Source: a virus
Taxonomy: Duplodnaviria > Heunggongvirae > Uroviricota > Caudoviricetes
DNA length: 14,002 nt
IMG/VR virus record: IMGVR_UViG_3300029828_000052
Span: 1-14,002 of that record
Reading direction: 5' to 3' (one strand)
Each line of letters opens with the position of its first letter. The stretch's first letter is position 1. This document shows, one piece after another, positions 1 to 11,887 of this stretch. The notes below the pieces were generated by a model that searched no databases, was not told where the DNA came from, and saw only the letters and a program-made list of their open reading frames with translations. The position numbers were made by a program, and so were the translations under genes.

Positions 1-2340
1 CTGGCATCGAAGTCTATGGCTTTCCCCAGCTCAACGATTGTGCGTACATCGCGATCGTTGTAGTAACGCCACGGGCAGGGGATCCCCTGCCGTTCGTATG
101 AACGGCGCAAAATCGTGTTGTCGAAGTTGGCTCCATTCCCCCAGACCTGGACAAAAAATTCACCGGAGTTTTCATCTATAAATTCCCGCAATTGCAGTAG
201 CGCATCATCTAACGGGATTTCATCGGTCAGAATGGCAGATTGCGCCTCGCGTGATTGCTTGAGCCACCATTTAATGGTGTCACGATCAATGACTCCGCCA
301 GTAGTTTCCAGATCGATGGTCTTGCTAAATTCCGGTCCCATATCTCCGGTTTGCGGATCGAAAAATATTGCACCTATTGAGATAATCGGGGCATCAGGAT
401 TTTTTCCCATGGTTTCGAGGTCGATCATTAGATGGTCATACGTCCTGCTGGTGGATGTGATTTCGTGATGACCGTTCACCTTAATTGAGTGATCTGCCGC
501 CTCGCCAGTTTCATTATCGCTGGCGTGGTCCTGAGCGCTGCCAGCATTCTCCTTGAGTGGATGTTCAGCGCCTGCCATTTCCTCCGGATCATTTTCCTGA
601 ACTTCAACCTGATTCTCTTCATCGAATGTTTCCTGGTATGTTGCGTCGCCCATCACCGCGCCACAATCAGGGCAGTTGCCGTCGCCGGTCTGACCGCAGG
701 CGGTGCAGACTTTTTCCGCTTCCTGTTGCGCTACTGGCGCAGGTTGTTTCGTTTCTGGCTCGTTTTGTAACGCATTTGAGCTGTTTTGTTCCTCTTTCTG
801 GTCGTTCTGTTCCGTTTCTTGCTGGTTCTGGTTCACAGAATCGCGGGTTTCAATCCCCTTCACCCATTTCGGATCATTCGGGTCGCTAATCCCTGCAACA
901 AATTCACCGCGAGAGGCCGCAAGCAACTTATCGGCGTCAGGCTGGCTGATATTGGCTGCTTGCATAATTTTGTTTACTTCGTCAGCGGTAACTTTTACCT
1001 GATTAACTGGATCTATCTGTGCCTGAGCATCCAGCGATTGCGTGTCCTGGCGATGTTCAGTTGTATCCGGTTCCATTGTTTCAGCCGTTGCCTGTTCATC
1101 TGCCATTGCGTCAGACGGTTGTGATTTTTCCTCATTATTTTTTTCTTCTTCTGTTTCGCGTTCAGCAGCCAGTTCGCGGTTAACTTCTTCCAGGATATCT
1201 TTTTCCGGTGTATGTCGTGCAGCAGCGAGAGTTTCCTCGGAAGGGTTCTCGTGATCAGTCTCTGTTAAATAGGCGTTGATATACCCCTGAAGACGTCCCG
1301 GGTAATGATAAAACTCAGGGTGTGCGCTCCGGATAAGTGCAAAAATAGCGGCGCGGGAATAATCCAGGATACCCGGGATTGCGCGAAGTGCCGCGGACCA
1401 TTCTTTGAACGGACTTTCTTTCTTCCGGACGATTTCTTTTGCGCGACGATAAATGCTGCCCGGAATTTCATAAATATTAAAATCCATCGGAAGTGTGGCC
1501 GCTGCAATCTCCACATCCAGCGTATCGAAGGTGTGTACTAAATTCGGATTGCGATCGGTTTTGTTCCCTCCACCGGCATTAGCACCGGAAGCCGTGCGGG
1601 TGATGCGTGAAACACGATTTCCTTTCATCCACTCTTTTGTCAGCAGACCGCGATCGGTGTAGTCAGCGCCCAGGTATGCTTCGAAAAAAGCAGTCATCAG
1701 TCCCAGATCTGAATTACCAGGATTAGGGAAAACTTTGTCAGTGTCACGAACCAGTTTGTGGAGATCGCGAATTTCCAGCGGTTCGAGTTGCGCTGCTTTA
1801 TTTGAGATGGCCAGCGCGGTAACGGCGGGAAGTTTTTCATCCTGTGCGTTATGTAATGCGCGTAGTTCGCCCCGCGAAACGTGTGTGATCGGTTTTTCGC
1901 TGCCGTGCTGTGCCAGCCATCGAACAGGCAGAATCTGACCTGAAACCGGCAGGAGCATATTCTCCTCAATCTCAGTCATGTCTTCGCCGTTGACGTTGGT
2001 ATTGTCAGTGCTGGCTGGTTTATCCTGAACAGAGGGCGAGGGCGCGATAAGTACCATTGTGATACCATCTTCCCCGCCTTTTTCGTATCGGTTGCAGAAT
2101 TCGGTATCAAACACGCCTTCCGGAGGAAGGTCATTCACAACGGGTAAATGGACGCGAACAGGTTTTTTAAAATCCTCTTCGTCAAATCCTGCATCGTCCA
2201 TTGCGACAACACCGCGTGATATTGCAAGCGATAGTTTTTTTGCTGTGCGCCAGTAAAAACCGCCTTTAATCCCAAGACGTTTTCTGACTTTGTCATTTTT
2301 GGCTTCGTAATATAGTGCAATTTCTTCTTTATCAGTGCTC
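1..2340 (-). CDS. recE: Exodeoxyribonuclease VIII (RecE-family) protein, 3'-truncated by window edge; Cys4 motif and DnaQ-like DEDD exonuclease motifs near the window edge
   Basis: My own translation from ATG at 2340-2338 runs 780 codons to position 1 with no stop; the ORF track lists no minus-strand ORF in this frame, consistent with an open frame leaving the window. GAGG lies 8 nt upstream and an in-frame stop 8 codons upstream. Translation contains stretches I recognise as RecE-like ([50 protein letters not shown]), then [16 protein letters not shown], then MIDLETMG and VWGNGANFD. Confidence 0.7.
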
Positions 2341-4765: not shown

Positions 4766-4877
4766 ATTTAGTTTTCTCATGAATTCTGGTCAAGTATTTT
4801 TAATGAGAAAACTCAACATTTAATGCAAAATAAAGCCAATACATTGAAATGTAAGGCTTTAAAATTTGTGAAGGGGG
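4766..4877. promoter_or_regulatory. Leftward early promoter/operator region (PL/OL-like) with two operator-like palindromes
   Basis: AT-rich intergenic region between repressor stop and first early-left gene. TGAGAAAACTCA at 4804-4815 and imperfect copy TTTAGTTTTCTCAT at 4768-4781, centres about 34 bp apart; same motif as the operator at 5336-5349. Confidence 0.5.
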
Positions 4878-5285
4878 TTACTGATGTTTGTTACGTTTGC
4901 GAGCTTCTAGTAGCTCGGTGAATAGGCGATTAAAATTCTCAACGCGGGCACGGAGTTCGCTGATTTGTGCTTGCTGCTCTGATTTTGGAAGTGCGCGATA
5001 CAATCGCAACATCTCCAACTCATCTTCCGATAAGTCTAAGGCGCTGTTGAGTGCAACTGGTGGATCTGGTGTTTTATCCTCGTCACCAAACAGTATCCAA
5101 GTTGGTGAACATTGCAATACCTCAGCCAGGCGATGCAAATTTTGCCCGCGCGGGGCTGTATGGTCGCTTTCCCATAGTGAAATTGATGAGCCAGATACGC
5201 CAGCAGCTTTGCTTAAATCGTTTTGACTTAAACCAACCTGTTTGCGTCTTTCTCTAATTCGTTGACCTAAAGTTTTCTCGTTCAT
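4878..5285 (-). CDS. dicA: HTH XRE-family prophage repressor, DicA-like (135 aa)
   Basis: Complete ORF; N-terminal HTH (LSQNDLSKAAGVSGSSISLWE); VLQCSPTWILFGDEDK and ARVENFNRLFTELLEARKR match my recollection of DicA; divergent from a cro-like gene. No obvious SD, so possibly leaderless. Confidence 0.9.
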   Translation of the reverse strand: MNEKTLGQRIRERRKQVGLSQNDLSKAAGVSGSSISLWESDHTAPRGQNLHRLAEVLQCSPTWILFGDEDKTPDPPVALNSALDLSEDELEMLRLYRALPKSEQQAQISELRARVENFNRLFTELLEARKRNKHQ

Positions 5286-5362
5286 ATTTAGATATCTTAA
5301 TAACCCTTGACTTGAGATTCCTTGAGTGATTACTATTGAGAAAACTCAACTTTGGAGGGGTG
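5286..5362. promoter_or_regulatory. Divergent promoter/operator region (PR/OR-like)
   Basis: -35 TTGACT (5307-5312), 18-nt spacer, -10 TACTAT (5331-5336); perfect palindrome TTGAGAAAACTCAA (5336-5349) overlapping the -10 and +1; CTTGAG half-sites at 5311-5316 and 5321-5326; GGAGGGG SD at 5354-5360. Confidence 0.6.
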
Positions 5363-5590
5363 ATGTTTAAATCAGACGTAATTAATTTTTATGGGACGAA
5401 AGCCAAAGTAGCGAAAGCTGCTGGTGTTGATCCATCTGCTGTTTCTCAATGGGGGGAATTGGTTCCTGAAGGTCGCGCGATGCGCCTGCAAGAGGCATCC
5501 GGCGGGGAACTTCAGTACGACCCCAAAGTTTATGACGAATATCGTAAGGCAAAGCGGGCGGGGCGGTTGAACAATGAAAATCACCCCTGA
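5363..5590 (+). CDS. dicC: Cro-like regulator, DicC/YdaS family (75 aa)
   Basis: ATG at 5363 sits 3 nt after the GGAGGGG SD; the track start at 5336 is a TTG inside the operator. Small basic protein divergent from the repressor gene. Confidence 0.75.
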   Translation: MFKSDVINFYGTKAKVAKAAGVDPSAVSQWGELVPEGRAMRLQEASGGELQYDPKVYDEYRKAKRAGRLNNENHP

Positions 5591-6125
5591 ACAGGTTTGT
5601 GAGGCTCTGGATGCCTGGGTATGCCGACCAGGAATGACACAGGAGCAGGCGACGATATTAATCACGGAAGCATTCTGGGCTCTGAAAGAACGCCCGAACA
5701 TCGATGTTCAACGCGTCACGTTTAATGATGGCGAGGTTGATCAACGGGCGCTGGGCGTTAACCGGGTGAAGATATTCGAACGCTGGAAAGCTATCGACAC
5801 CAGGGATAAGCGGAAAAAATTCACGGCGCTGATTCCGGCAATTATGGAGGCTATCCGAATTAGTGATTTCAGGTTGTATCGTGAGATCAGTGATGGAAAA
5901 AGCATTACGTACATGATCGCCGGATTAAACAAAGAATATGGCGATGTGGTGGAGTCTGGGCTGCTTTTTGCGGATCCATCTGTTGTGGAACGTGAGACTG
6001 ACGAGCTTATAGAAAAAGCTATTGCTTTCAAGCATGCGTATCGTCAGCAATATCAATATTACTTTGCAGATAAACAAATGTCTGCCAGGGGTTCGTATGA
6101 GTATCGATGCACTACGATGGGCTAA
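5574..6125 (+). CDS. YdaT-like (CII-like) regulatory protein (183 aa)
   Basis: Complete ORF overlapping the cro-like gene by 17 nt; second gene after cro; contains ALIPAIMEAI, resembling what I recall of Rac YdaT. Confidence 0.7.
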   Translation: MKITPEQVCEALDAWVCRPGMTQEQATILITEAFWALKERPNIDVQRVTFNDGEVDQRALGVNRVKIFERWKAIDTRDKRKKFTALIPAIMEAIRISDFRLYREISDGKSITYMIAGLNKEYGDVVESGLLFADPSVVERETDELIEKAIAFKHAYRQQYQYYFADKQMSARGSYEYRCTTMG

Positions 6126-7137
6126 AAAGGTGAAAACCGGCAGTTCATCCAGTAAGTCTGTATTGACCTGGCTTGCTGATATGTGCGGTGCCGATTTGTG
6201 TGCATACCCGTCTGTATCTGCACTGGCAGAAGTAACGGAACTGAACAAAAAGACTGTGCAGGACAGCTTACGACACCTGATGGAGATTGGGTTAATTGTT
6301 GATACCGGTGAGAGAAAAGGCAAAACAAAGCAAATTGTGGTGTACCGACTTATCGGTGTAGAAGAAAGTGTTGCCGAGCCTGAATACACCCAAAAACGGG
6401 AGTCTTTAAAGGTGGGTAAAATTGGTGCTGTTAATAAAAACAGTACCGAAAATGGTTATGTTTCAGCACAAAACAGACCCAAAAACGGAACTCTTAGCTG
6501 CATGGAAAATAACCAAAGACACCCAAATTTTCCATCAAAGACACCCAAAAACGGATCACGGAACCCAAAGGAACCCAAAGATCTAAACCCCACACATAAC
6601 GCACGCGAGAGTGCTCCGACCAGTGAGCAGGAGGTTTTGTCGTTACAGGCAGCCCCCCCTGTATTCCTGGATGGCCTGAGCGAACCCATCGGAAAATTCC
6701 CGATGAGCGATAGCTGGTATCCGTCACGGGATTTTCGACGACGGGCTGCGTTGTGGGGGATGGCTTTGCCGGAGACAGAATTTACACCTGCTGAACTTGC
6801 CGCCTTCCGGGACTACTGGGCAGCGGAGGGTAAAGTTTTCACGCAGGTTCAGTGGGAGCAGAAATTCGCCCGTCACGTAAATCACGTCAGGGCGCAGGCT
6901 AAACCAGTCAGCAAGGGGGTAAACCATGCAGCAGCACCAGGTGGCACCGCATCACGGGCAGTTCAGGAAATTCGGGCAGCACGTGAGCAGTGGGAACGTG
7001 AAAACGGATTTATCAACGACGGAAACTGCCTGGAAGCTGTGGGAACTCATGGGGGAGGTTTATTCGAACCGCTGGACCCAGAAGAACGGGGCCGCACCTT
7101 CGAAGCTCTGGATTGCACAGATTGGCGCGATGACTGA
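6097..7137 (+). CDS. Replication initiation protein, O-like (N-terminal HTH, low-complexity linker, DnaT-like C-terminal region)
   Basis: ATG at 6097 with AGGGG SD (track start 6022 is further upstream). N-terminus MSIDALRWAKK...SVSALAEVTELNKKTVQDSLRHLMEIGLI is HTH-like; linker NRPKNGTLSCMENNQRHPNFPSKTPKNGSRNPKEPK coincides with the iteron-like repeats; C-terminal DSWYPSRDF...FRDYWAAEGKVFTQVQWEQKFARHV. The last ~70 codons overlap the P-like ORF. Confidence 0.75.
   Translation: MSIDALRWAKKVKTGSSSSKSVLTWLADMCGADLCAYPSVSALAEVTELNKKTVQDSLRHLMEIGLIVDTGERKGKTKQIVVYRLIGVEESVAEPEYTQKRESLKVGKIGAVNKNSTENGYVSAQNRPKNGTLSCMENNQRHPNFPSKTPKNGSRNPKEPKDLNPTHNARESAPTSEQEVLSLQAAPPVFLDGLSEPIGKFPMSDSWYPSRDFRRRAALWGMALPETEFTPAELAAFRDYWAAEGKVFTQVQWEQKFARHVNHVRAQAKPVSKGVNHAAAPGGTASRAVQEIRAAREQWERENGFINDGNCLEAVGTHGGGLFEPLDPEERGRTFEALDCTDWRDD
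6475..6580. repeat. Iteron-like direct repeats inside the O-like gene linker (candidate origin)
   Basis: AGACCCAAAAACGGAAC (6475-6491), AGACACCCAAATTTTCC (6517-6533), AGACACCCAAAAACGGATC (6539-6557), tandem GAACCCAAAG x2 (6561-6580); 21-22 bp phasing. Confidence 0.45.
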
Positions 7138-7591
7138 GCAGCAAATCCGGCAGGTCTGCCGCCAGTGCATGGACCGTTGCAGGGCAGGTGAAACATGGCC
7201 TCCGGACCTGGCTGAGTTTGTGGCGCTGATTTCGGAGAGCGGGGCAAATCCATTTGGTCTGACGGTGGATAACGTGATGGAGGAGTACCGACGCTGGCGC
7301 AACGAGTCCTGGCGATACGACGGAAGCGATAAATACCCGTGGTCTCAGCCTGTGCTGTATCACATTTGTCTCGAGATGCGTTCCAAGGGGATTGAGCGCC
7401 AGATGACCGAAGGGGAGTTAAAACGGCTTGCAGAACGGCAACTGGCGAAATGGGCAAAGCATGTTGGTAACGGACTGAGTGTTCCACCCGTCCGTAGGCA
7501 ACTGGCAGCACCCATACGTCCTGCGGGACCAACGCCAATTGAGTTGCTGAAACAGGAATATGAACGCAGGAAAGCGGCAGGTTTTGTTTGA
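6926..7591 (+). CDS. Replication protein P-like helicase loader (221 aa from ATG 6926; alternative starts 7049 or 7130)
   Basis: WPPDLAEFVALI and DKYPWSQPVLYHICLEMR resemble lambda P (GQFVAWC, SYPWKSNAHYWLV) as I recall it. ATG 6926 has a strong SD (AAGGGGG, 6-nt spacing) but overlaps the O-like ORF by 212 nt. Confidence 0.7.
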   Translation: MQQHQVAPHHGQFRKFGQHVSSGNVKTDLSTTETAWKLWELMGEVYSNRWTQKNGAAPSKLWIAQIGAMTEQQIRQVCRQCMDRCRAGETWPPDLAEFVALISESGANPFGLTVDNVMEEYRRWRNESWRYDGSDKYPWSQPVLYHICLEMRSKGIERQMTEGELKRLAERQLAKWAKHVGNGLSVPPVRRQLAAPIRPAGPTPIELLKQEYERRKAAGFV

Positions 7592-7620
7592 GTTGATAAG
7601 TAATTTTACCGGGAGGGTTT

Positions 7621-8016
7621 ATGGCGAAACCTTTTACACCCGAACAGCGGGAAGAGCTGAAGGCACGAATTATCGGATTGGTACGCAAAAATGGACGCAT
7701 GACGATGTCGCAACTGGAGAGAGCGACGGGAGCTGGCTGGCATTCGGTCCGGCGCTGCCTTGTGGATGTACTGGCTTGTGGTGATTTATACATGTCCGGG
7801 GAATACGGTGTTTTTGCATCAGAGCAGGCGTATCGTGAATGGCGTAAGACACCGGAGAAAACAACTGACCAGACACTGATTCGAAAGTTACCAGACGGAG
7901 AAATACGCCGCTACGACAGACACCTGAACATAATCTGTCGCGAGTGCCGGAAGAGTGAGGTTATGCAGCGAGTGCTGGCGTTTTATCAGGGGAAATTTCA
8001 GGAGGTGATGCTGTGA
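7621..8016 (+). CDS. Hypothetical protein (131 aa)
   Basis: Complete ORF; GGGAGGG SD just upstream of ATG; 4-nt overlap with the next gene. Confidence 0.7.
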   Translation: MAKPFTPEQREELKARIIGLVRKNGRMTMSQLERATGAGWHSVRRCLVDVLACGDLYMSGEYGVFASEQAYREWRKTPEKTTDQTLIRKLPDGEIRRYDRHLNIICRECRKSEVMQRVLAFYQGKFQEVML

Positions 8017-10298: not shown

Positions 10299-10814
10299 AT
10301 GGCGTTAACACACCGCGAACTCTGTCAGATTGCGTATAAGTTCCTTAAGCGCAACGGGTTCAAGGTTTGTTTTCATGACCGCTTTATAGCTGTAACCAGT
10401 ACCGGAGAACAGCCAGATGCTATGGGATTCAGAAATTCAGCATCATGCCTGATAGAGGCGAAATGTTCTCGTGCTGACTTGTTGGCAGATAGAAAAAAGC
10501 GTTTTCGTAAAAATCCGTCTCTTGGAATGGGCGACTGGCGATTCTTTATTAGTGAGCCGGGAATTATTTCAGTTGAGGATTTACCACCTGGCTGGGGATT
10601 ACTTCACGTTGTTAACGGAAGAGTACGGAAAGTACATGGGTGGCCCAAGGGGAATTGCTGTTGGGGTAACCCTGAAGATAAACCTTTTATTGGGAATAAG
10701 CAGGTTGAATGCGATTACATGTTATCTGCATTAAGGCGCATGGAGTTGAGAGGGCACCTTAATGAAATATATGACGGCGTAATTGTTAATAAGAAAGAAG
10801 GAAACGCGGCATGA
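10299..10814 (+). CDS. Hypothetical protein (171 aa) with PD-(D/E)XK nuclease-like motif
   Basis: ATG at 10299 with AAGGAG SD 6 nt upstream (the track start at 10227 overlaps the previous gene). GEQPDAMGF followed by CLIEAKCS fits a PD...ExK signature. Confidence 0.65.
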   Translation: MALTHRELCQIAYKFLKRNGFKVCFHDRFIAVTSTGEQPDAMGFRNSASCLIEAKCSRADLLADRKKRFRKNPSLGMGDWRFFISEPGIISVEDLPPGWGLLHVVNGRVRKVHGWPKGNCCWGNPEDKPFIGNKQVECDYMLSALRRMELRGHLNEIYDGVIVNKKEGNAA

Positions 10815-11317
10815 CCACTATTACCAAAGAGCGACTACTGACAATCAAGCAGTGGCGCGAAACATACGGACCTGGTAGCAACGTTATACTGCCAGCAGAA
10901 GAAGCGGAAGAACTGGCACGGATTGCACTGGCATCACTGGAAGCAGAGCCGGTGGTTTACATGTGGGATAGCGAAAGAAAAGATATTGATGCCCCCGGGT
11001 ATTATCGGGCTGAGCATTTAGTGTTCGCTGAGAGTAGTGTTAAGCAATGGGGAGGGCGAGTTGTTCCACTTTACACCGCCCCGCCAGCGACGGTAGTGCC
11101 GGAATTTGAAACATGGTTTAACAGCCAGGAGCCAGGGAGGAGTATATGCAGCACACAGATTCGTCGCTCCCTTCAGGAAATCTCATGGAACGCCTGCTGC
11201 GCCGCTCCCTTCAGGAAATCTCATGGAACGCCTGCTGCGCCGCCATGCTTCAGGGGAAAGGCGATGGTATCCTCACCAATGAGGATACCAAAGGGGACGT
11301 TCAGGTACGGGAATTAA
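10811..11317 (+). CDS. Hypothetical protein, C-terminus frameshifted by a 38-bp tandem duplication (possible pseudogene)
   Basis: ATGA overlap with the upstream gene; protein-like up to the repeat at about 11165, then an aberrant tail (PFRKSHGTPAAPPCFRGKAMVSSPMRIPKGTFRYGN). Confidence 0.55.
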   Translation: MTTITKERLLTIKQWRETYGPGSNVILPAEEAEELARIALASLEAEPVVYMWDSERKDIDAPGYYRAEHLVFAESSVKQWGGRVVPLYTAPPATVVPEFETWFNSQEPGRSICSTQIRRSLQEISWNACCAAPFRKSHGTPAAPPCFRGKAMVSSPMRIPKGTFRYGN

Positions 11318-11442
11318 CAATGCTGATTAAACAACTGGCTAGCCAATTGAGGAAAGCGAAGCCGAACTGCAAATTACCGGAGAAGGCGATGGTCTACCTG
11401 AAGCGAAACGGACTGATAAGCGCGGAGGATATTTTACGATGA
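11146..11442 (+). CDS. ORF carrying the displaced C-terminal part of the upstream gene (98 aa from ATG 11146)
   Basis: ATG at 11146 with GGGAGGAG SD; after the duplication the frame reads a protein-like tail (GILTNEDTKGDVQVRELTMLIKQLASQLRKAK...). Removing one repeat copy fuses it in-frame to 10811. Confidence 0.4.
   Translation: MQHTDSSLPSGNLMERLLRRSLQEISWNACCAAMLQGKGDGILTNEDTKGDVQVRELTMLIKQLASQLRKAKPNCKLPEKAMVYLKRNGLISAEDILR
11165..11243. repeat. Perfect 38-bp tandem direct duplication (2 copies) inside coding sequence
   Basis: GCTCCCTTCAGGAAATCTCATGGAACGCCTGCTGCGCC at 11166-11203 and again at 11204-11241, checked base by base; period-38 identity spans 11165-11243. Confidence 0.95.
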
Positions 11443-11522: not shown

Positions 11523-11674
11523 AAACGGTTTGCGGGAAAAGGAGAGTTAAGTAGAATTGCTGCGGGTGCTTGAGGCTATCTGCCTCAGGCATGAACACCA
11601 AAAGGCAGATAGAGAAAAGCCCCAGTTAACATTACGCGTCCTGCAAGACGCTTAACATTAATCTGAGGCTCCCT

Positions 11675-11887
11675 ATGCATGACAACATCAGGTTAGCCTC
11701 TTACGTGCCGAAAGGCAAGGAGAAGCAGGCTATGAAGCAGCAAAAGGCGATGTTAATCGCCCTGATCGTCATCTGTTTAACCGTCATAGTGACGGCACTG
11801 GTAACGAGGAAAGACCTCTGCGAGGTACGAATCCGAACCGGCCAGACGGAGGTCGCTGTCTTCACAGCTTACGAACCTGAGGAGTAA
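11675..11887 (+). CDS. Mok-like reading frame (in-frame N-terminal extension of hok, 70 aa)
   Basis: Complete 70-aa ORF that contains Hok; this architecture matches the annotated chromosomal mok/hok pairs as I recall them. Confidence 0.5.
   Translation: MHDNIRLASYVPKGKEKQAMKQQKAMLIALIVICLTVIVTALVTRKDLCEVRIRTGQTEVAVFTAYEPEE
11732..11887 (+). CDS. hokD: Hok/Gef-family type I toxin (51 aa), HokD-like
   Basis: MKQQKAMLIALIVICLTVIVTALVTRKDLCEVRIRTGQTEVAVFTAYEPEE: single transmembrane helix and conserved C-terminus typical of Hok; followed by a 3' stem-loop and an intrinsic terminator. Confidence 0.85.
   Translation: MKQQKAMLIALIVICLTVIVTALVTRKDLCEVRIRTGQTEVAVFTAYEPEE

What the first reader, a model, noticed from the sequence alone, without database searches (positions are those of the whole stretch)
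6434..6600. Iteron-like repeats embedded in the linker of the O-like replication gene (candidate ori)
Direct repeats of AGAC(A)CCCAAA(AACGGA) recur with about 21-22 bp phasing, plus a tandem GAACCCAAAG dimer, exactly where the encoded protein is a low-complexity linker between the N-terminal DNA-binding domain and the DnaT-like C-terminus. This mirrors lambda, where the origin iterons lie inside gene O, but the repeat sequence here is different.
Basis: partly seen in the sequence, partly recalled or inferred. Interest (0 to 1): 0.5.

Follow-up and report, generated by a model that had tools for sequence, protein, structure and literature searches.

The report
Prophage replication origin inside initiator gene
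The repeats are real and constrained at the DNA level, and are most likely the binding sites of a lambda-style replication origin lying inside the prophage's own initiator gene; the arrangement is familiar, but these particular conserved sequences seem not to have been described before.

Summary
All six ACCCAAA heptamers in the 14-kb window lie on the + strand in 6388-6579. Three are exact CCCAAAAACGG 11-mers. A matrix built only from other genera picks four sites here (6382-6402, 6438-6458, 6471-6491, 6537-6557) and nothing else in the window.

They lie in the part of the 346-aa initiator gene (6097-7137) that encodes a disordered linker. This linker joins an N-terminal winged-helix domain (HTH_36) to a DnaT-like ssDNA-binding domain. 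A lambda-P-like gene follows.

The constraint is on the DNA, not the peptide:
- Across 86 loci from many proteobacterial genera, the motif occurs 175 times just after the N-domain and 11 times elsewhere.
- It occurs in all three codon phases.
- In PKNG peptides the proline codon is always CCC.

The repeats are inherited with the N-domain, not the C-domain. An 8.46-kb circular E. coli replicon carries this module as its only visible replication system.

The GGAACCCAAA dimer is a separate element. It is the local form of a family-wide triad of 12-13-mers after the last site.

Verdict: a lambda-style origin inside the initiator gene, and a new member of a known kind. Binding and origin firing are inferred, not shown.

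The parts
6097..7137 (+). Replication initiator gene (346 aa): N-terminal winged helix, disordered linker, DnaT-like C-terminal domain
   Evidence: ORF and translation. RefSeq annotation of near-identical records. Pfam DnaT E=4e-17 and a weak HTH_36 hit. PHROG 'replication initiation protein', phrog_1032, E=1e-90.
6097..6366 (+). Coding region of the N-terminal winged-helix domain (aa 1-90), the proposed iteron-binding domain
   Evidence: AF2 pLDDT 74-89 with H-H-H-H-beta-beta topology. Foldseek matches are generic winged-helix DNA binders. All 72 family members match HTH_36.
6367..6681 (+). Coding region of the disordered linker (aa 91-195), which holds all the repeats
   Evidence: pLDDT about 30 over aa 91-195. 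GC minimum of 33-40% and strong A>T and C>G skew over 6380-6600.
6382..6402 (+). Iteron 1, GAATACACCCAAAAACGGGAG.
   Evidence: Family matrix score 30.1. Exact 11-mer. Codon phase differs from iterons 3 and 4. Conserved in 9 genera.
6408..6428 (+). Decayed iteron relic, AAAGGTGGGTAAAATTGGTGC
   Evidence: It aligns column for column with AAAGACACCCAAAAACGGTGC of the Edwardsiella and Serratia relatives, but the CCC is lost. It does not score with the matrix.
6438..6458 (+). Iteron 2 (weak), AAACAGTACCGAAAATGGTTA
   Evidence: Matrix score 16.5; the next best site outside the cluster scores 5.0. It aligns with ACCGAAAACGG of relatives. Several E. coli variants carry T6453C, which restores CGG.
6471..6491 (+). 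Iteron 3, AAACAGACCCAAAAACGGAAC (read as R-P-K-N-G)
   Evidence: Matrix score 30.8, the best in the window. Exact 11-mer.
6515..6535 (+). Variant iteron, AAAGACACCCAAATTTTCCAT. The left half is kept and the right half is TTCC instead of CGG.
   Evidence: Exact 14-nt repeat of the left half of iteron 4. The same 'penultimate ...TTCC' variant is present in Enterobacter, Edwardsiella and Acinetobacter relatives.
6537..6557 (+). Iteron 4, AAAGACACCCAAAAACGGATC. It is the last and best conserved.
   Evidence: Matrix score 26.9. CCCAAAAACGG is invariant in all 9 aligned genera.
6560..6589 (+). Second element: GGAACCCAAA GGAACCCAAA GATCTAAACC. This is the local version of the family-wide triad of 12-13-mers (R)GAAYCTMYCA. 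It is a candidate unwinding or loading site.
   Evidence: TRF period 10, 2.1 copies, 100% match. It aligns with CGGAATCTACCAAGGAACCATAAAGATCTAAACC of relatives. Family-wide, GAAYCT occurs at 5.9 per kb here against 0.48 per kb elsewhere, usually as 3 copies 12-13 bp apart, in more than one codon phase in 48 loci. One E. coli variant has three copies.
6697..6900 (+). Coding region of the DnaT-like ssDNA-binding domain (aa 201-268)
   Evidence: Pfam PF17948, 62 bits. Foldseek hits to 6aeq and 4ou6 (DnaT ssDNA-binding domain), 55-57% identity, TM about 0.9.
7130..7591 (+). Lambda-P-family gene, the presumed helicase loader
   Evidence: Pfam Phage_lambda_P E=8e-17. RefSeq 'replication protein P'.
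5307..5336 (+). Promoter-like site between the dicA-like repressor and the cro/dicC-like gene. It is the presumed pR equivalent, transcribing through the initiator gene and the repeats.
   Evidence: The only sigma-70-like match in 4800-7800. Gene order dicA(-) / dicC(+) / ydaT-like / initiator / P. Consensus match only.

Best explanation
The repeats are the iteron array of the prophage's replication origin, placed inside the initiator gene as in phage lambda.

**Proposed mechanism**
1. After derepression, transcription from the promoter upstream of the cro-like gene expresses the initiator and passes through the array.
2. The N-terminal winged-helix domain (aa 1-90) binds the sites of form AAnRnnCCCAAAAACGGnA. 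These are three strong sites at 6382-6402, 6471-6491 and 6537-6557, one weak site at 6438-6458, and one variant at 6515-6535. All are head-to-tail on one strand. Binding builds a nucleoprotein complex.
3. The duplex opens next to the last site. The 10-mer repeats at 6560-6589 are the most likely place.
4. The flexible linker lets the DnaT-like C-terminal domain hold single-stranded DNA and/or the lambda-P-like protein encoded next door, and P delivers the host DnaB helicase.

**Shown here**
- The repeats exist and are unique in the window.
- The constraint is on the DNA, independent of reading frame.
- They are inherited together with the N-domain.
- The domain architecture is as described.

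**Inferred**
- Binding by the N-domain, the site of unwinding, helicase recruitment, and origin activity itself.
For: **1. Cluster in the window**
- All 6 ACCCAAA copies and all 3 CCCAAAAACGG copies fall in 6388-6579 on one strand.
- A 21-nt matrix built without this window scores 30.8, 30.1, 26.9 and 16.5 here. The best score anywhere else on either strand is 5.0.

**2. Family-wide conservation at one place**
- In 86 loci (80 species genomes, 5 phages and the window), CCCAAAAACGG with at most 1 mismatch occurs 175 times on the coding strand at +200 to +700 from the start codon. It occurs 11 times elsewhere.

**3. DNA-level constraint**
- Sites fall in codon phases 119 / 42 / 14 with the same extended consensus but unrelated peptides: NxPKNG, xQKR and PKT(E/G).
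- In 65 PKNG sites chosen at the peptide level, the codons are CCC 100% (23% elsewhere), AAA 100% (69%) and AAC 95% (44%).

**4. The N-domain is the only constant partner**
- Upstream and downstream genes and the C-terminal domain differ between family members.
- The E. coli Rac ydaU gene shares the C-terminal half from about 6576 onwards. It has another N-domain and lacks the array.
- Lineages with diverged N-domains carry diverged repeats at the same place.

**5. Anatomy parallels lambda**
- Lambda's four annotated iterons begin at O codon 116, just after its DNA-binding domain, and also occupy three codon phases.
- A P-family gene follows in both.
- Lambda ori lies in the middle of O and consists of iterons plus an AT-rich tract (PMC7466680).

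**6. Fold evidence**
- Winged-helix N-domain, disordered linker, DnaT ssDNA-binding fold.

**7. A natural small replicon**
- NZ_CP148379.1 is an 8,461-bp circular E. coli replicon.
- It consists of the dicA-to-rem prophage segment, with the intact initiator, the same array and P, and no other typed replicon.
- That strain's chromosome is not among the 60 best matches, which extend down to 97.2% identity.
- The circle closes at a 10-nt microhomology.
Against: - There is no experimental evidence of binding or origin activity for any member of this family in the papers I could search.
- No clearly AT-rich unwinding element flanks the last iteron here. Region 6560-6619 is 53% GC, and the family-wide AT excess is only 4-7%.
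- The window has only three strong sites, and their spacing is irregular (89 and 66 bp).
- Its version of the 12-13-mer triad is remodelled and lacks GAAYCT altogether.
- The circular replicon could be an assembly artefact. I could not inspect reads or coverage. The second small circle, NZ_CP148543.1, has the initiator frameshifted at a C7 run.
- Many copies of this prophage are defective. In the best chromosomal match the neighbouring genes are truncated by IS600.
Confidence: 0.78

Rival explanations
1. The repeats are initiator-binding sites, but they serve mainly for autoregulation, copy-number control (handcuffing) or exclusion of related phages. The place where the DNA opens and replication starts lies elsewhere.
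For: - Iterons in plasmids serve both initiation and control (established knowledge, reviewed in papers listed).
- No strong AT-rich tract adjoins the array in this window.
- Cloned lambda ori iterons cause replicative inhibition of related phages (PMC3349717, listed).
Against: - The array is immediately followed, across the family, by a conserved triad of 12-13-mers. That is the usual layout of an origin.
- No other repeat cluster matching the motif exists in the 14 kb.
- The 8.46-kb circle limits any origin to the dicA-to-rem segment.
- The two roles are not exclusive.
Confidence: 0.1
2. The repeats are recognised by some other DNA-binding protein, such as a host factor or another phage protein (the YdaT-like or Cro-like protein). 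The purpose would be regulation, packaging or partition.
For: - The core is unusually constant across hosts as distant as E. coli, Vibrio and Acinetobacter although the N-domains are only 34-48% identical. A conserved host factor could explain this.
- The GAAYCT triad is even more constant than the iterons.
Against: - The neighbouring genes are not conserved across the family. A YdaT-like gene is annotated upstream only in the E. coli and Klebsiella loci, not in the five phages examined.
- Array sequence changes track N-domain lineage.
- The array is lost when the N-domain is swapped, as in Rac ydaU.
- No DnaA box lies nearby.
Confidence: 0.07
3. The DNA repeats are only the by-product of a repeated peptide motif (PKNG) in a low-complexity linker, or of neutral replication slippage, and have no function as DNA.
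For: - Two thirds of the sites across the family (119 of 175) are in the phase that reads PKNG.
- Many arrays have periods that are multiples of three: 18, 24 and 33 bp.
- The 10-mer varies in copy number in E. coli.
Against: - 56 of 175 sites are in the other two phases. They keep the same extended DNA consensus but encode unrelated peptides.
- Synonymous positions of PKNG codons are fixed (0.23 to the power 65 for proline alone).
- The window itself uses three phases.
- All sites are on one strand and confined to about 300 bp.
Confidence: 0.03

Closest known systems
Phage lambda ori (four iterons plus an AT-rich tract inside gene O, with O and P proteins), and the six-iteron origins of Stx phages 933W and P27
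   Same: - The array lies inside the initiator ORF, starting just after the DNA-binding domain, in a linker-coding stretch with an A-rich top strand.
- The sites sit in different codon phases.
- Centre-to-centre spacing is about 20-33 bp across the family.
- A P-family gene lies directly downstream, and the operon is transcribed from a cro-side promoter.
- The N-domain and its iterons form one recombination module.
- The iteron skeleton is shared: CCC..AAAACG..GG(G).
(PMC7466680)
   Different: - The N-domain is Pfam HTH_36, not Phage_rep_O. hhalign to lambda O gives only 2-6% probability.
- The C-terminal domain is DnaT-like, not the lambda O C-domain.
- The iteron is shorter between CCC and GG (6 nt against 9 nt). 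In this window it is asymmetric rather than a near-perfect palindrome.
- The array is followed by 10-13-mer direct repeats rather than a plainly AT-rich tract.
E. coli Rac prophage ydaU-ydaV replication module (Rac-SA53, KU052037)
   Same: - Same gene order: dicA, dicC, ydaT, initiator, P-like.
- About 90% DNA identity from window position 6577 to the end of the initiator gene and into the P-like gene.
   Different: - The Rac initiator has a different N-terminal part, which does not align with the HTH_36 family. E. coli proteins pairing this C-domain with a DUF1376 N-domain are common.
- Rac lacks the CCCAAAAACGG array, with only a single one-mismatch hit.
- The junction lies right after the GGAACCCAAA dimer.
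Iteron origins of plasmids (Rep_3-type RepA, pi and TrfA with directly repeated iterons and 13-mer unwinding repeats) and the oriC 13-mers
   Same: - Head-to-tail asymmetric direct repeats of about 20 bp on one strand.
- They are followed by a short array of 10-13-mers.
- The layout of plasmid origins is taken from established knowledge and from reviews listed.
   Different: - The initiator has one winged-helix domain and no Rep_3 match.
- There are no DnaA boxes nearby.
- The origin lies inside a coding sequence.
Host primosomal protein DnaT (C-terminal ssDNA-binding domain, PDB 4ou6 and 6aeq)
   Same: The C-terminal domain of the initiator is 55-57% identical to it, with TM about 0.9. Pfam DnaT gives 62 bits.
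   Different: It is not DnaT itself. The NCBIfam equivalog score is 94 against a cut-off of 201. It is fused to an origin-binding domain, and it is a phage protein.

Membership tests
Lambda-type origin embedded in the initiator gene | Three or more direct repeats of about 19-21 bp inside the initiator ORF, just 3' of the DNA-binding-domain coding region | tested here: met
   There are four matrix-positive sites plus one variant at 6382-6557. The first starts at codon 96, after the wing that ends near aa 85.
Lambda-type origin embedded in the initiator gene | Repeats conserved as DNA, independent of the reading frame | tested here: met
   Three codon phases in the window and across the family. 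Synonymous positions are fixed.
Lambda-type origin embedded in the initiator gene | Iterons with dyad symmetry (binding of an initiator dimer) | tested here: inconclusive
   In this window there is only a weak CCC-N6-GG(G/A) dyad. Relatives have clear palindromes, such as GTACCAATATTGGTAC and GTCGGGAAAACCCGAC.
Lambda-type origin embedded in the initiator gene | AT-rich unwinding tract next to the last iteron | tested here: not met
   Region 6560-6619 is 53% GC. The GC minimum (33-40%) lies within the array. Family-wide, the AT excess after the last site is only about 4-6%. A triad of 10-13-mers occupies that position instead.
Lambda-type origin embedded in the initiator gene | P-family helicase loader encoded directly downstream | tested here: met
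   PF06992 E=8e-17 for the ORF ending at 7591. RefSeq 'replication protein P'.
Lambda-type origin embedded in the initiator gene | Initiator binds the iterons and the fragment fires as an origin | not testable with these tools
   Needs EMSA or footprinting and a plasmid replication assay.
Lambda-type origin embedded in the initiator gene | A small circle carrying repressor side, cro, initiator and P replicates on its own (lambda-dv equivalent) | tested here: inconclusive
   NZ_CP148379.1 is an 8,461-bp circular record with exactly this content and no typed replicon. That strain's chromosome is absent from the 60 best matches. Reads and coverage could not be checked.
Lambda O protein family (Pfam PF04492, Phage_rep_O) | N-terminal domain matches the Phage_rep_O profile | tested here: not met
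   No PF04492 hit for the window protein or for any of 72 relatives. hhalign to lambda O gives probability 2-6% over the recognition helix and wing. The only link is that both proteins match phrog_678 and phrog_345.
HTH_36 (PF13730) winged-helix initiators | N-terminal domain matches PF13730 | tested here: met
   The window protein scores 20.8 bits, below the 25-bit cut-off. However, 72 of 72 aligned relatives match, with a best E of 1.7e-16. Precomputed PF13730 is on record for close homologues.
DnaT C-terminal ssDNA-binding domain (PF17948) | Profile match above the cut-off, and the fold | tested here: met
   62.1 bits against a cut-off of 25. Foldseek to 6aeq and 4ou6 gives TM about 0.9 and 55-57% identity. 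It is not the DnaT equivalog: 94 bits against 201.
Plasmid iteron origins (Rep_3 type) | Rep_3 initiator with two winged-helix domains, and DnaA boxes in the origin | tested here: not met
   No Rep_3 hit. There is one winged-helix domain. The nearest DnaA-box-like site is at 7264-7272, and the count is as expected by chance.

The most novel reading that the evidence does not exclude
The pair 'CC-N6-GG iterons plus a triad of (R)GAAYCTMYCA 12-13-mers' is a single, deeply conserved origin cassette. It would be shared by the whole HTH_36 initiator family, which has about 2,200 clusters at 50% identity.

The triad is more constant than the iterons. It is also independent of which C-terminal domain or helicase partner is present.

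On this reading the triad is a previously unrecognised origin element. It could be a sequence-specific single-strand binding or helicase-loading site used by the initiator, or by a host factor common to Beta-, Gamma- and Deltaproteobacteria. Initiators from phages of different genera might then fire each other's origins.
Probability: 0.3. Interest if true: 0.55.

Novelty: new member of a known kind. Interest (0 to 1): 0.36.

Why it matters
- **Locating the origin.** It places the likely origin of a very common E. coli prophage type. Similar sequence occurs in 1,276 of 5,426 complete genomes, including the PPompW prophages that sit next to Stx2a phages.
- **A search pattern.** It gives a simple DNA signature for finding origins in a family of phage initiators with about 2,200 sequence clusters. 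The signature is AAnRnnCCCAAAAACGG repeats followed by GAAYCT 12-13-mers.
- **Annotation.** The five phage records examined annotate no origin or repeat feature there.
- **Evolution.** It shows that the lambda rule, in which the DNA-binding domain and its sites travel as one module, holds for a different initiator family.
- **Experiments.** It offers defined fragments for building dv-type plasmids and for testing cross-specificity between initiators.

It does not change how phage replication is understood.

Tried and rejected
- **Viral contig scan.** The alignment-based scan returned only near-identical E. coli copies. These were useful for polymorphism but not for diversity.
- **First genome scan.** It failed because the alignment had no conserved stretch. 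A four-sequence alignment worked.
- **N-domain protein search.** It returned mostly fragments, so the full-length search was used for the structure alignment.
- **Homology to lambda O.** Profile comparison stayed inconclusive, at 2-6% probability. I therefore do not file the protein as a member of the lambda O family.
- **Solved structures.** None exists for the N-domain (best E 0.029).
- **AT-rich unwinding tract.** I looked for a lambda-like tract after the last iteron. There is none in this window and only a weak family-wide signal.
- **DnaA boxes.** Present only at chance level.
- **Rfam.** The only hit is sok, far downstream, so no RNA reading is supported.
- **Single-strand folding of 6380-6600.** z = -2.65, from two small hairpins that are not conserved in relatives. 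Not pursued.
- **Helical phasing.** The family spacings (24-26, 33 and 17-18 bp) are not multiples of 10.5, so I dropped the idea that the sites lie on one face of the helix.
- **Literature (with readings).** No description of this motif was found. The library lacks most subscription-journal papers, for example the Weigel and Seitz 2006 review.
- **The 15.6-kb circle NZ_CP148543.1.** Rejected as evidence because its initiator is frameshifted.
Full report
**Context**

The window is the early-right region of a lambdoid, Rac-like E. coli prophage, called PPompW in GenBank phage records. Similar sequence occurs in 1,276 of 5,426 complete E. coli genomes.

The gene order around the finding is:
- a dicA-like repressor at 4878-5285 (-)
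- a cro/dicC-like gene ending at 5590 (+)
- a YdaT-like gene at 5574-6125 (+)
- the 346-aa initiator at 6097-7137 (+)
- a lambda-P-family gene at 7130-7591 (+)

The only sigma-70-like site in 4800-7800 lies between the two regulators, at 5307-5336.

**Checking the observation**

- ACCCAAA occurs six times in the 14 kb. All copies are on the + strand, at 6388, 6477, 6521, 6543, 6563 and 6573. The spacing is 89, 44, 22, 20 and 10 bp.
- Three copies are part of exact CCCAAAAACGG 11-mers, at 6389, 6478 and 6544. The 11-mer occurs nowhere else in the window, even with one mismatch.
- CAAAGACACCCAAA is repeated exactly 22 bp apart. GGAACCCAAA is a perfect tandem dimer at 6560-6580.

**The protein**

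- Pfam finds a DnaT domain at aa 201-268 (E=4e-17) and a weak HTH_36 match at aa 36-67.
- An AlphaFold2 model shows three parts:
  - a confident winged-helix domain at aa 1-90
  - no structure at aa 91-195 (pLDDT about 30)
  - a folded domain at aa 196-268
- The folded C-terminal domain superposes on the DnaT ssDNA-binding domain at 55-57% identity and TM about 0.9.
- All the repeats lie in the stretch that encodes the disordered linker. That stretch is also the GC minimum and has a strongly A- and C-rich top strand.

**Peptide repeat or DNA repeat?**

In the window the six heptamers occupy all three codon phases. The three 11-mers are read as T-Q-K-R in one case and P-K-N-G in two.

I then collected relatives of the N-domain: five phages from GenBank and 80 loci from one-genome-per-species bacterial assemblies. 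The phages were Edwardsiella EPP-1, E. coli phiV10, Acinetobacter AP22, Burkholderia Bcep176 and Vibrio H20. The genome loci came from Enterobacterales, Acinetobacter, Marinomonas, Pseudoalteromonas, Vibrio, Desulfovibrionaceae and Beta- and Alphaproteobacteria.

- **Same motif, same place.** The motif is repeated immediately after the N-domain in distant relatives.
- **Counts.** Over the 86 loci, CCCAAAAACGG with at most one mismatch occurs 175 times on the coding strand between +200 and +700 of the start codon. It occurs 11 times anywhere else on either strand. Sixty loci have at least one copy and 43 have at least two.
- **Codon phases.** The sites fall in phases 119 / 42 / 14. In each phase the extended DNA consensus AA-n-R-n-n-CCCAAAAACGG-n-A is kept, while the peptides are unrelated.
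- **Synonymous positions.** To avoid choosing sites by their DNA, I selected 65 distinct PKNG peptides and looked at their codons:
  - proline is CCC in 100%, against 23% in the rest of the same genes
  - lysine is AAA in 100%, against 69%
  - asparagine is AAC in 95%, against 44%

The constraint is on the DNA.

**Which sites count here**

A 21-nt matrix built from the other genera was scanned over both strands of the window. It gives 30.8 (6471-6491), 30.1 (6382-6402), 26.9 (6537-6557) and 16.5 (6438-6458). The next best score is 5.0.

Alignment with nine genera adds two more sites:
- a decayed relic at 6408-6428
- a conserved variant at 6515-6535, whose right half is TTCC instead of CGG

The last site is invariant in all nine genera. 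Among 27 E. coli sequence variants the array is almost unchanged. Several variants carry T6453C, which restores CGG in the weak site.

**Who binds?**

- The only constant partner of the array across the family is the N-domain. The genes upstream and downstream, and the C-terminal domain, all differ. Only 8 of 72 relatives have a DnaT domain.
- The Rac prophage gene ydaU shares the C-terminal half at about 90% DNA identity, starting at about 6576. That is right after the GGAACCCAAA dimer. Rac has a different N-domain and no array.
- E. coli also combines this C-domain with several other N-domains.
- Lineages with diverged N-domains carry diverged, often palindromic, repeats at the same place. 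Examples are GTACCAATATTGGTAC in Acinetobacter, GTCGGGAAAACCCGAC in a betaproteobacterium and CCCCCGAAC...GTTCGGG in Desulfovibrionaceae.

The N-domain and its repeats therefore form one inherited module. This is the pattern known for lambdoid O genes.

**A second element**

In relatives, the last iteron is followed by two or three tandem units of (R)GAAYCTMYCA, 12-13 bp apart.

- GAAYCT occurs at 5.9 per kb in this position against 0.48 per kb elsewhere.
- It is usually present in three copies, and in 48 loci the copies lie in more than one codon phase.
- It is conserved even where the iterons have changed.

Compare CGGAATCTACCAAGGAACCATAAAGATCTAAACC in Enterobacter-type relatives with CGGAACCCAAAGGAACCCAAAGATCTAAACC here. 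One E. coli variant has three copies.

By position, this element corresponds to the AT-rich tract of lambda ori or the 13-mers of oriC and plasmid origins. In this window, however, it is not AT-rich, and the family-wide AT excess is small. Calling it the unwinding or loading site is an inference.

**Comparison with lambda**

- In the lambda record the four annotated iterons start at O codon 116, directly after the DNA-binding domain. They also lie in three codon phases and are followed by an A-rich tract. Their sequence is TCCCTCAAAACGAGGGA and variants.
- The literature describes ori-lambda as iterons plus an AT-rich tract in the middle of O, bound by O to form the O-some (PMC7466680).
- The present sites share the CCC...AAAACG...GG(G) skeleton, but they have six rather than nine bases between the C and G runs.
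- Membership in the lambda O protein family is not supported. There is no Phage_rep_O hit, and hhalign gives 2-6% probability.
- Both proteins do match phrog_678 and phrog_345. In addition, phrog_391 combines this type of N-domain with a lambda-type C-domain.
- The feature therefore works like lambda ori but belongs to another initiator family, HTH_36. That family has about 2,200 clusters at 50% identity.

**A natural test**

PLSDB holds an 8,461-bp circular E. coli record, NZ_CP148379.1.

- It consists exactly of the dicA-to-rem segment of this prophage type, with the intact 346-aa initiator, the same array and P. It has no typed replicon.
- In other strains the same 8.46 kb is a contiguous chromosomal stretch.
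- The chromosome of the strain that carries the circle is not among the 60 best matches to the module, which extend down to 97.2% identity.
- The circle closes at a 10-nt microhomology, GCACGGTGTT.

This looks like a lambda-dv equivalent and would place an origin within that segment. I could not check reads or coverage, so it counts as supporting evidence only. A second circle of 15.6 kb has the initiator frameshifted at a C7 run and was set aside.

**Other checks**

There are no DnaA boxes near the array and no Rfam family in the region. The five phage records examined annotate no origin or repeat feature there. I found no paper describing this motif.

**Verdict**

The repeats are real, constrained as DNA, and tied to the winged-helix domain encoded just upstream. 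The best explanation is the iteron array of a lambda-style origin inside the initiator gene (confidence about 0.78). Binding, unwinding and firing still need to be shown.

It is a new member of a known kind. For a specialist, the deep conservation of the 11-bp core and of the 12-13-mer triad is the only mildly surprising part.

Noticed in passing
window 6560-6589; L088-L167 at about +380 to +520 from the start codon: A second element is conserved across the family right after the last iteron. It consists of 2-3 tandem units of (R)GAAYCTMYCA, 12-13 bp apart. The units lie in different codon phases, and the element is more constant than the iterons. The window carries a remodelled version, GGAACCCAAA x2 plus GATCTAAACC. 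Function unknown; it is a candidate unwinding or loading site.
   Followed up: partly
L170 (NZ_CP148379.1, 1-8461): An 8,461-bp circular E. coli 'plasmid' is made only of the dicA-to-rem prophage segment, with this replication module and no typed replicon. It is closed at the microhomology GCACGGTGTT. It may be a natural dv-like plasmid.
   Followed up: partly
window 6654-6660; L172 (NZ_CP148543.1): There is a run of seven C in the initiator gene. A 15.6-kb circular record carries a frameshift there, which would remove the DnaT-like domain. This may be a real pseudogene or a homopolymer sequencing error.
   Followed up: partly
window 6576-7137 and proteins P0054-P0152: The DnaT-like C-terminal half is a shuffled module. 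In E. coli it is joined to at least four other N-terminal types at 80-90% identity: DUF1376 alone, T5orf172 + MUG113 with or without DUF1376, and proteins named 'phage replisome organizer'. The Rac ydaU product shares the same C-terminal half.
   Followed up: partly
L098-L167, linker-coding region: Iteron variants specific to each lineage occur at the same position, and many are palindromic. Examples are GTACCAATATTGGTAC (Acinetobacter), CCCCCGAAC..GTTCGGG (Desulfovibrionaceae), GTCGGGAAAACCCGAC (a betaproteobacterium) and CCCCCAAAATAGGGGG (Marinomonas).
   Followed up: partly
window 6453 and 6560-6580, in E. coli variants L008-L087: Two polymorphisms occur among 27 sequence variants. T6453C turns the weak site GAAAATGG into GAAAACGG. 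One variant has three instead of two GGAACCCAAA units.
   Followed up: no
window 6502-6510 and 6527-6535: A perfect 9-nt inverted repeat, ATGGAAAAT / ATTTTCCAT, brackets the variant iteron. It accounts for much of the single-strand folding signal (z = -2.65). It is only partly conserved in relatives.
   Followed up: no
window 11165-11243: A perfect tandem duplication of a 38-bp unit (2.1 copies). Because 38 is not a multiple of three, it probably splits one gene into the two overlapping ORFs 10811-11317 and 11146-11442. Neither has a Pfam match.
   Followed up: no
window 744-827: An imperfect 21-bp tandem array of 4 copies with 65% matches (consensus TTGTTCCGTTTCTGGCTCGTT). It lies inside the region annotated in a relative as a frameshifted exonuclease gene on the minus strand.
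   Followed up: no
window 11564-11737: A sok antitoxin RNA (Rfam RF01794, 118 bits) of a hok/sok-type module. Relatives carry hokD in this region.
   Followed up: no
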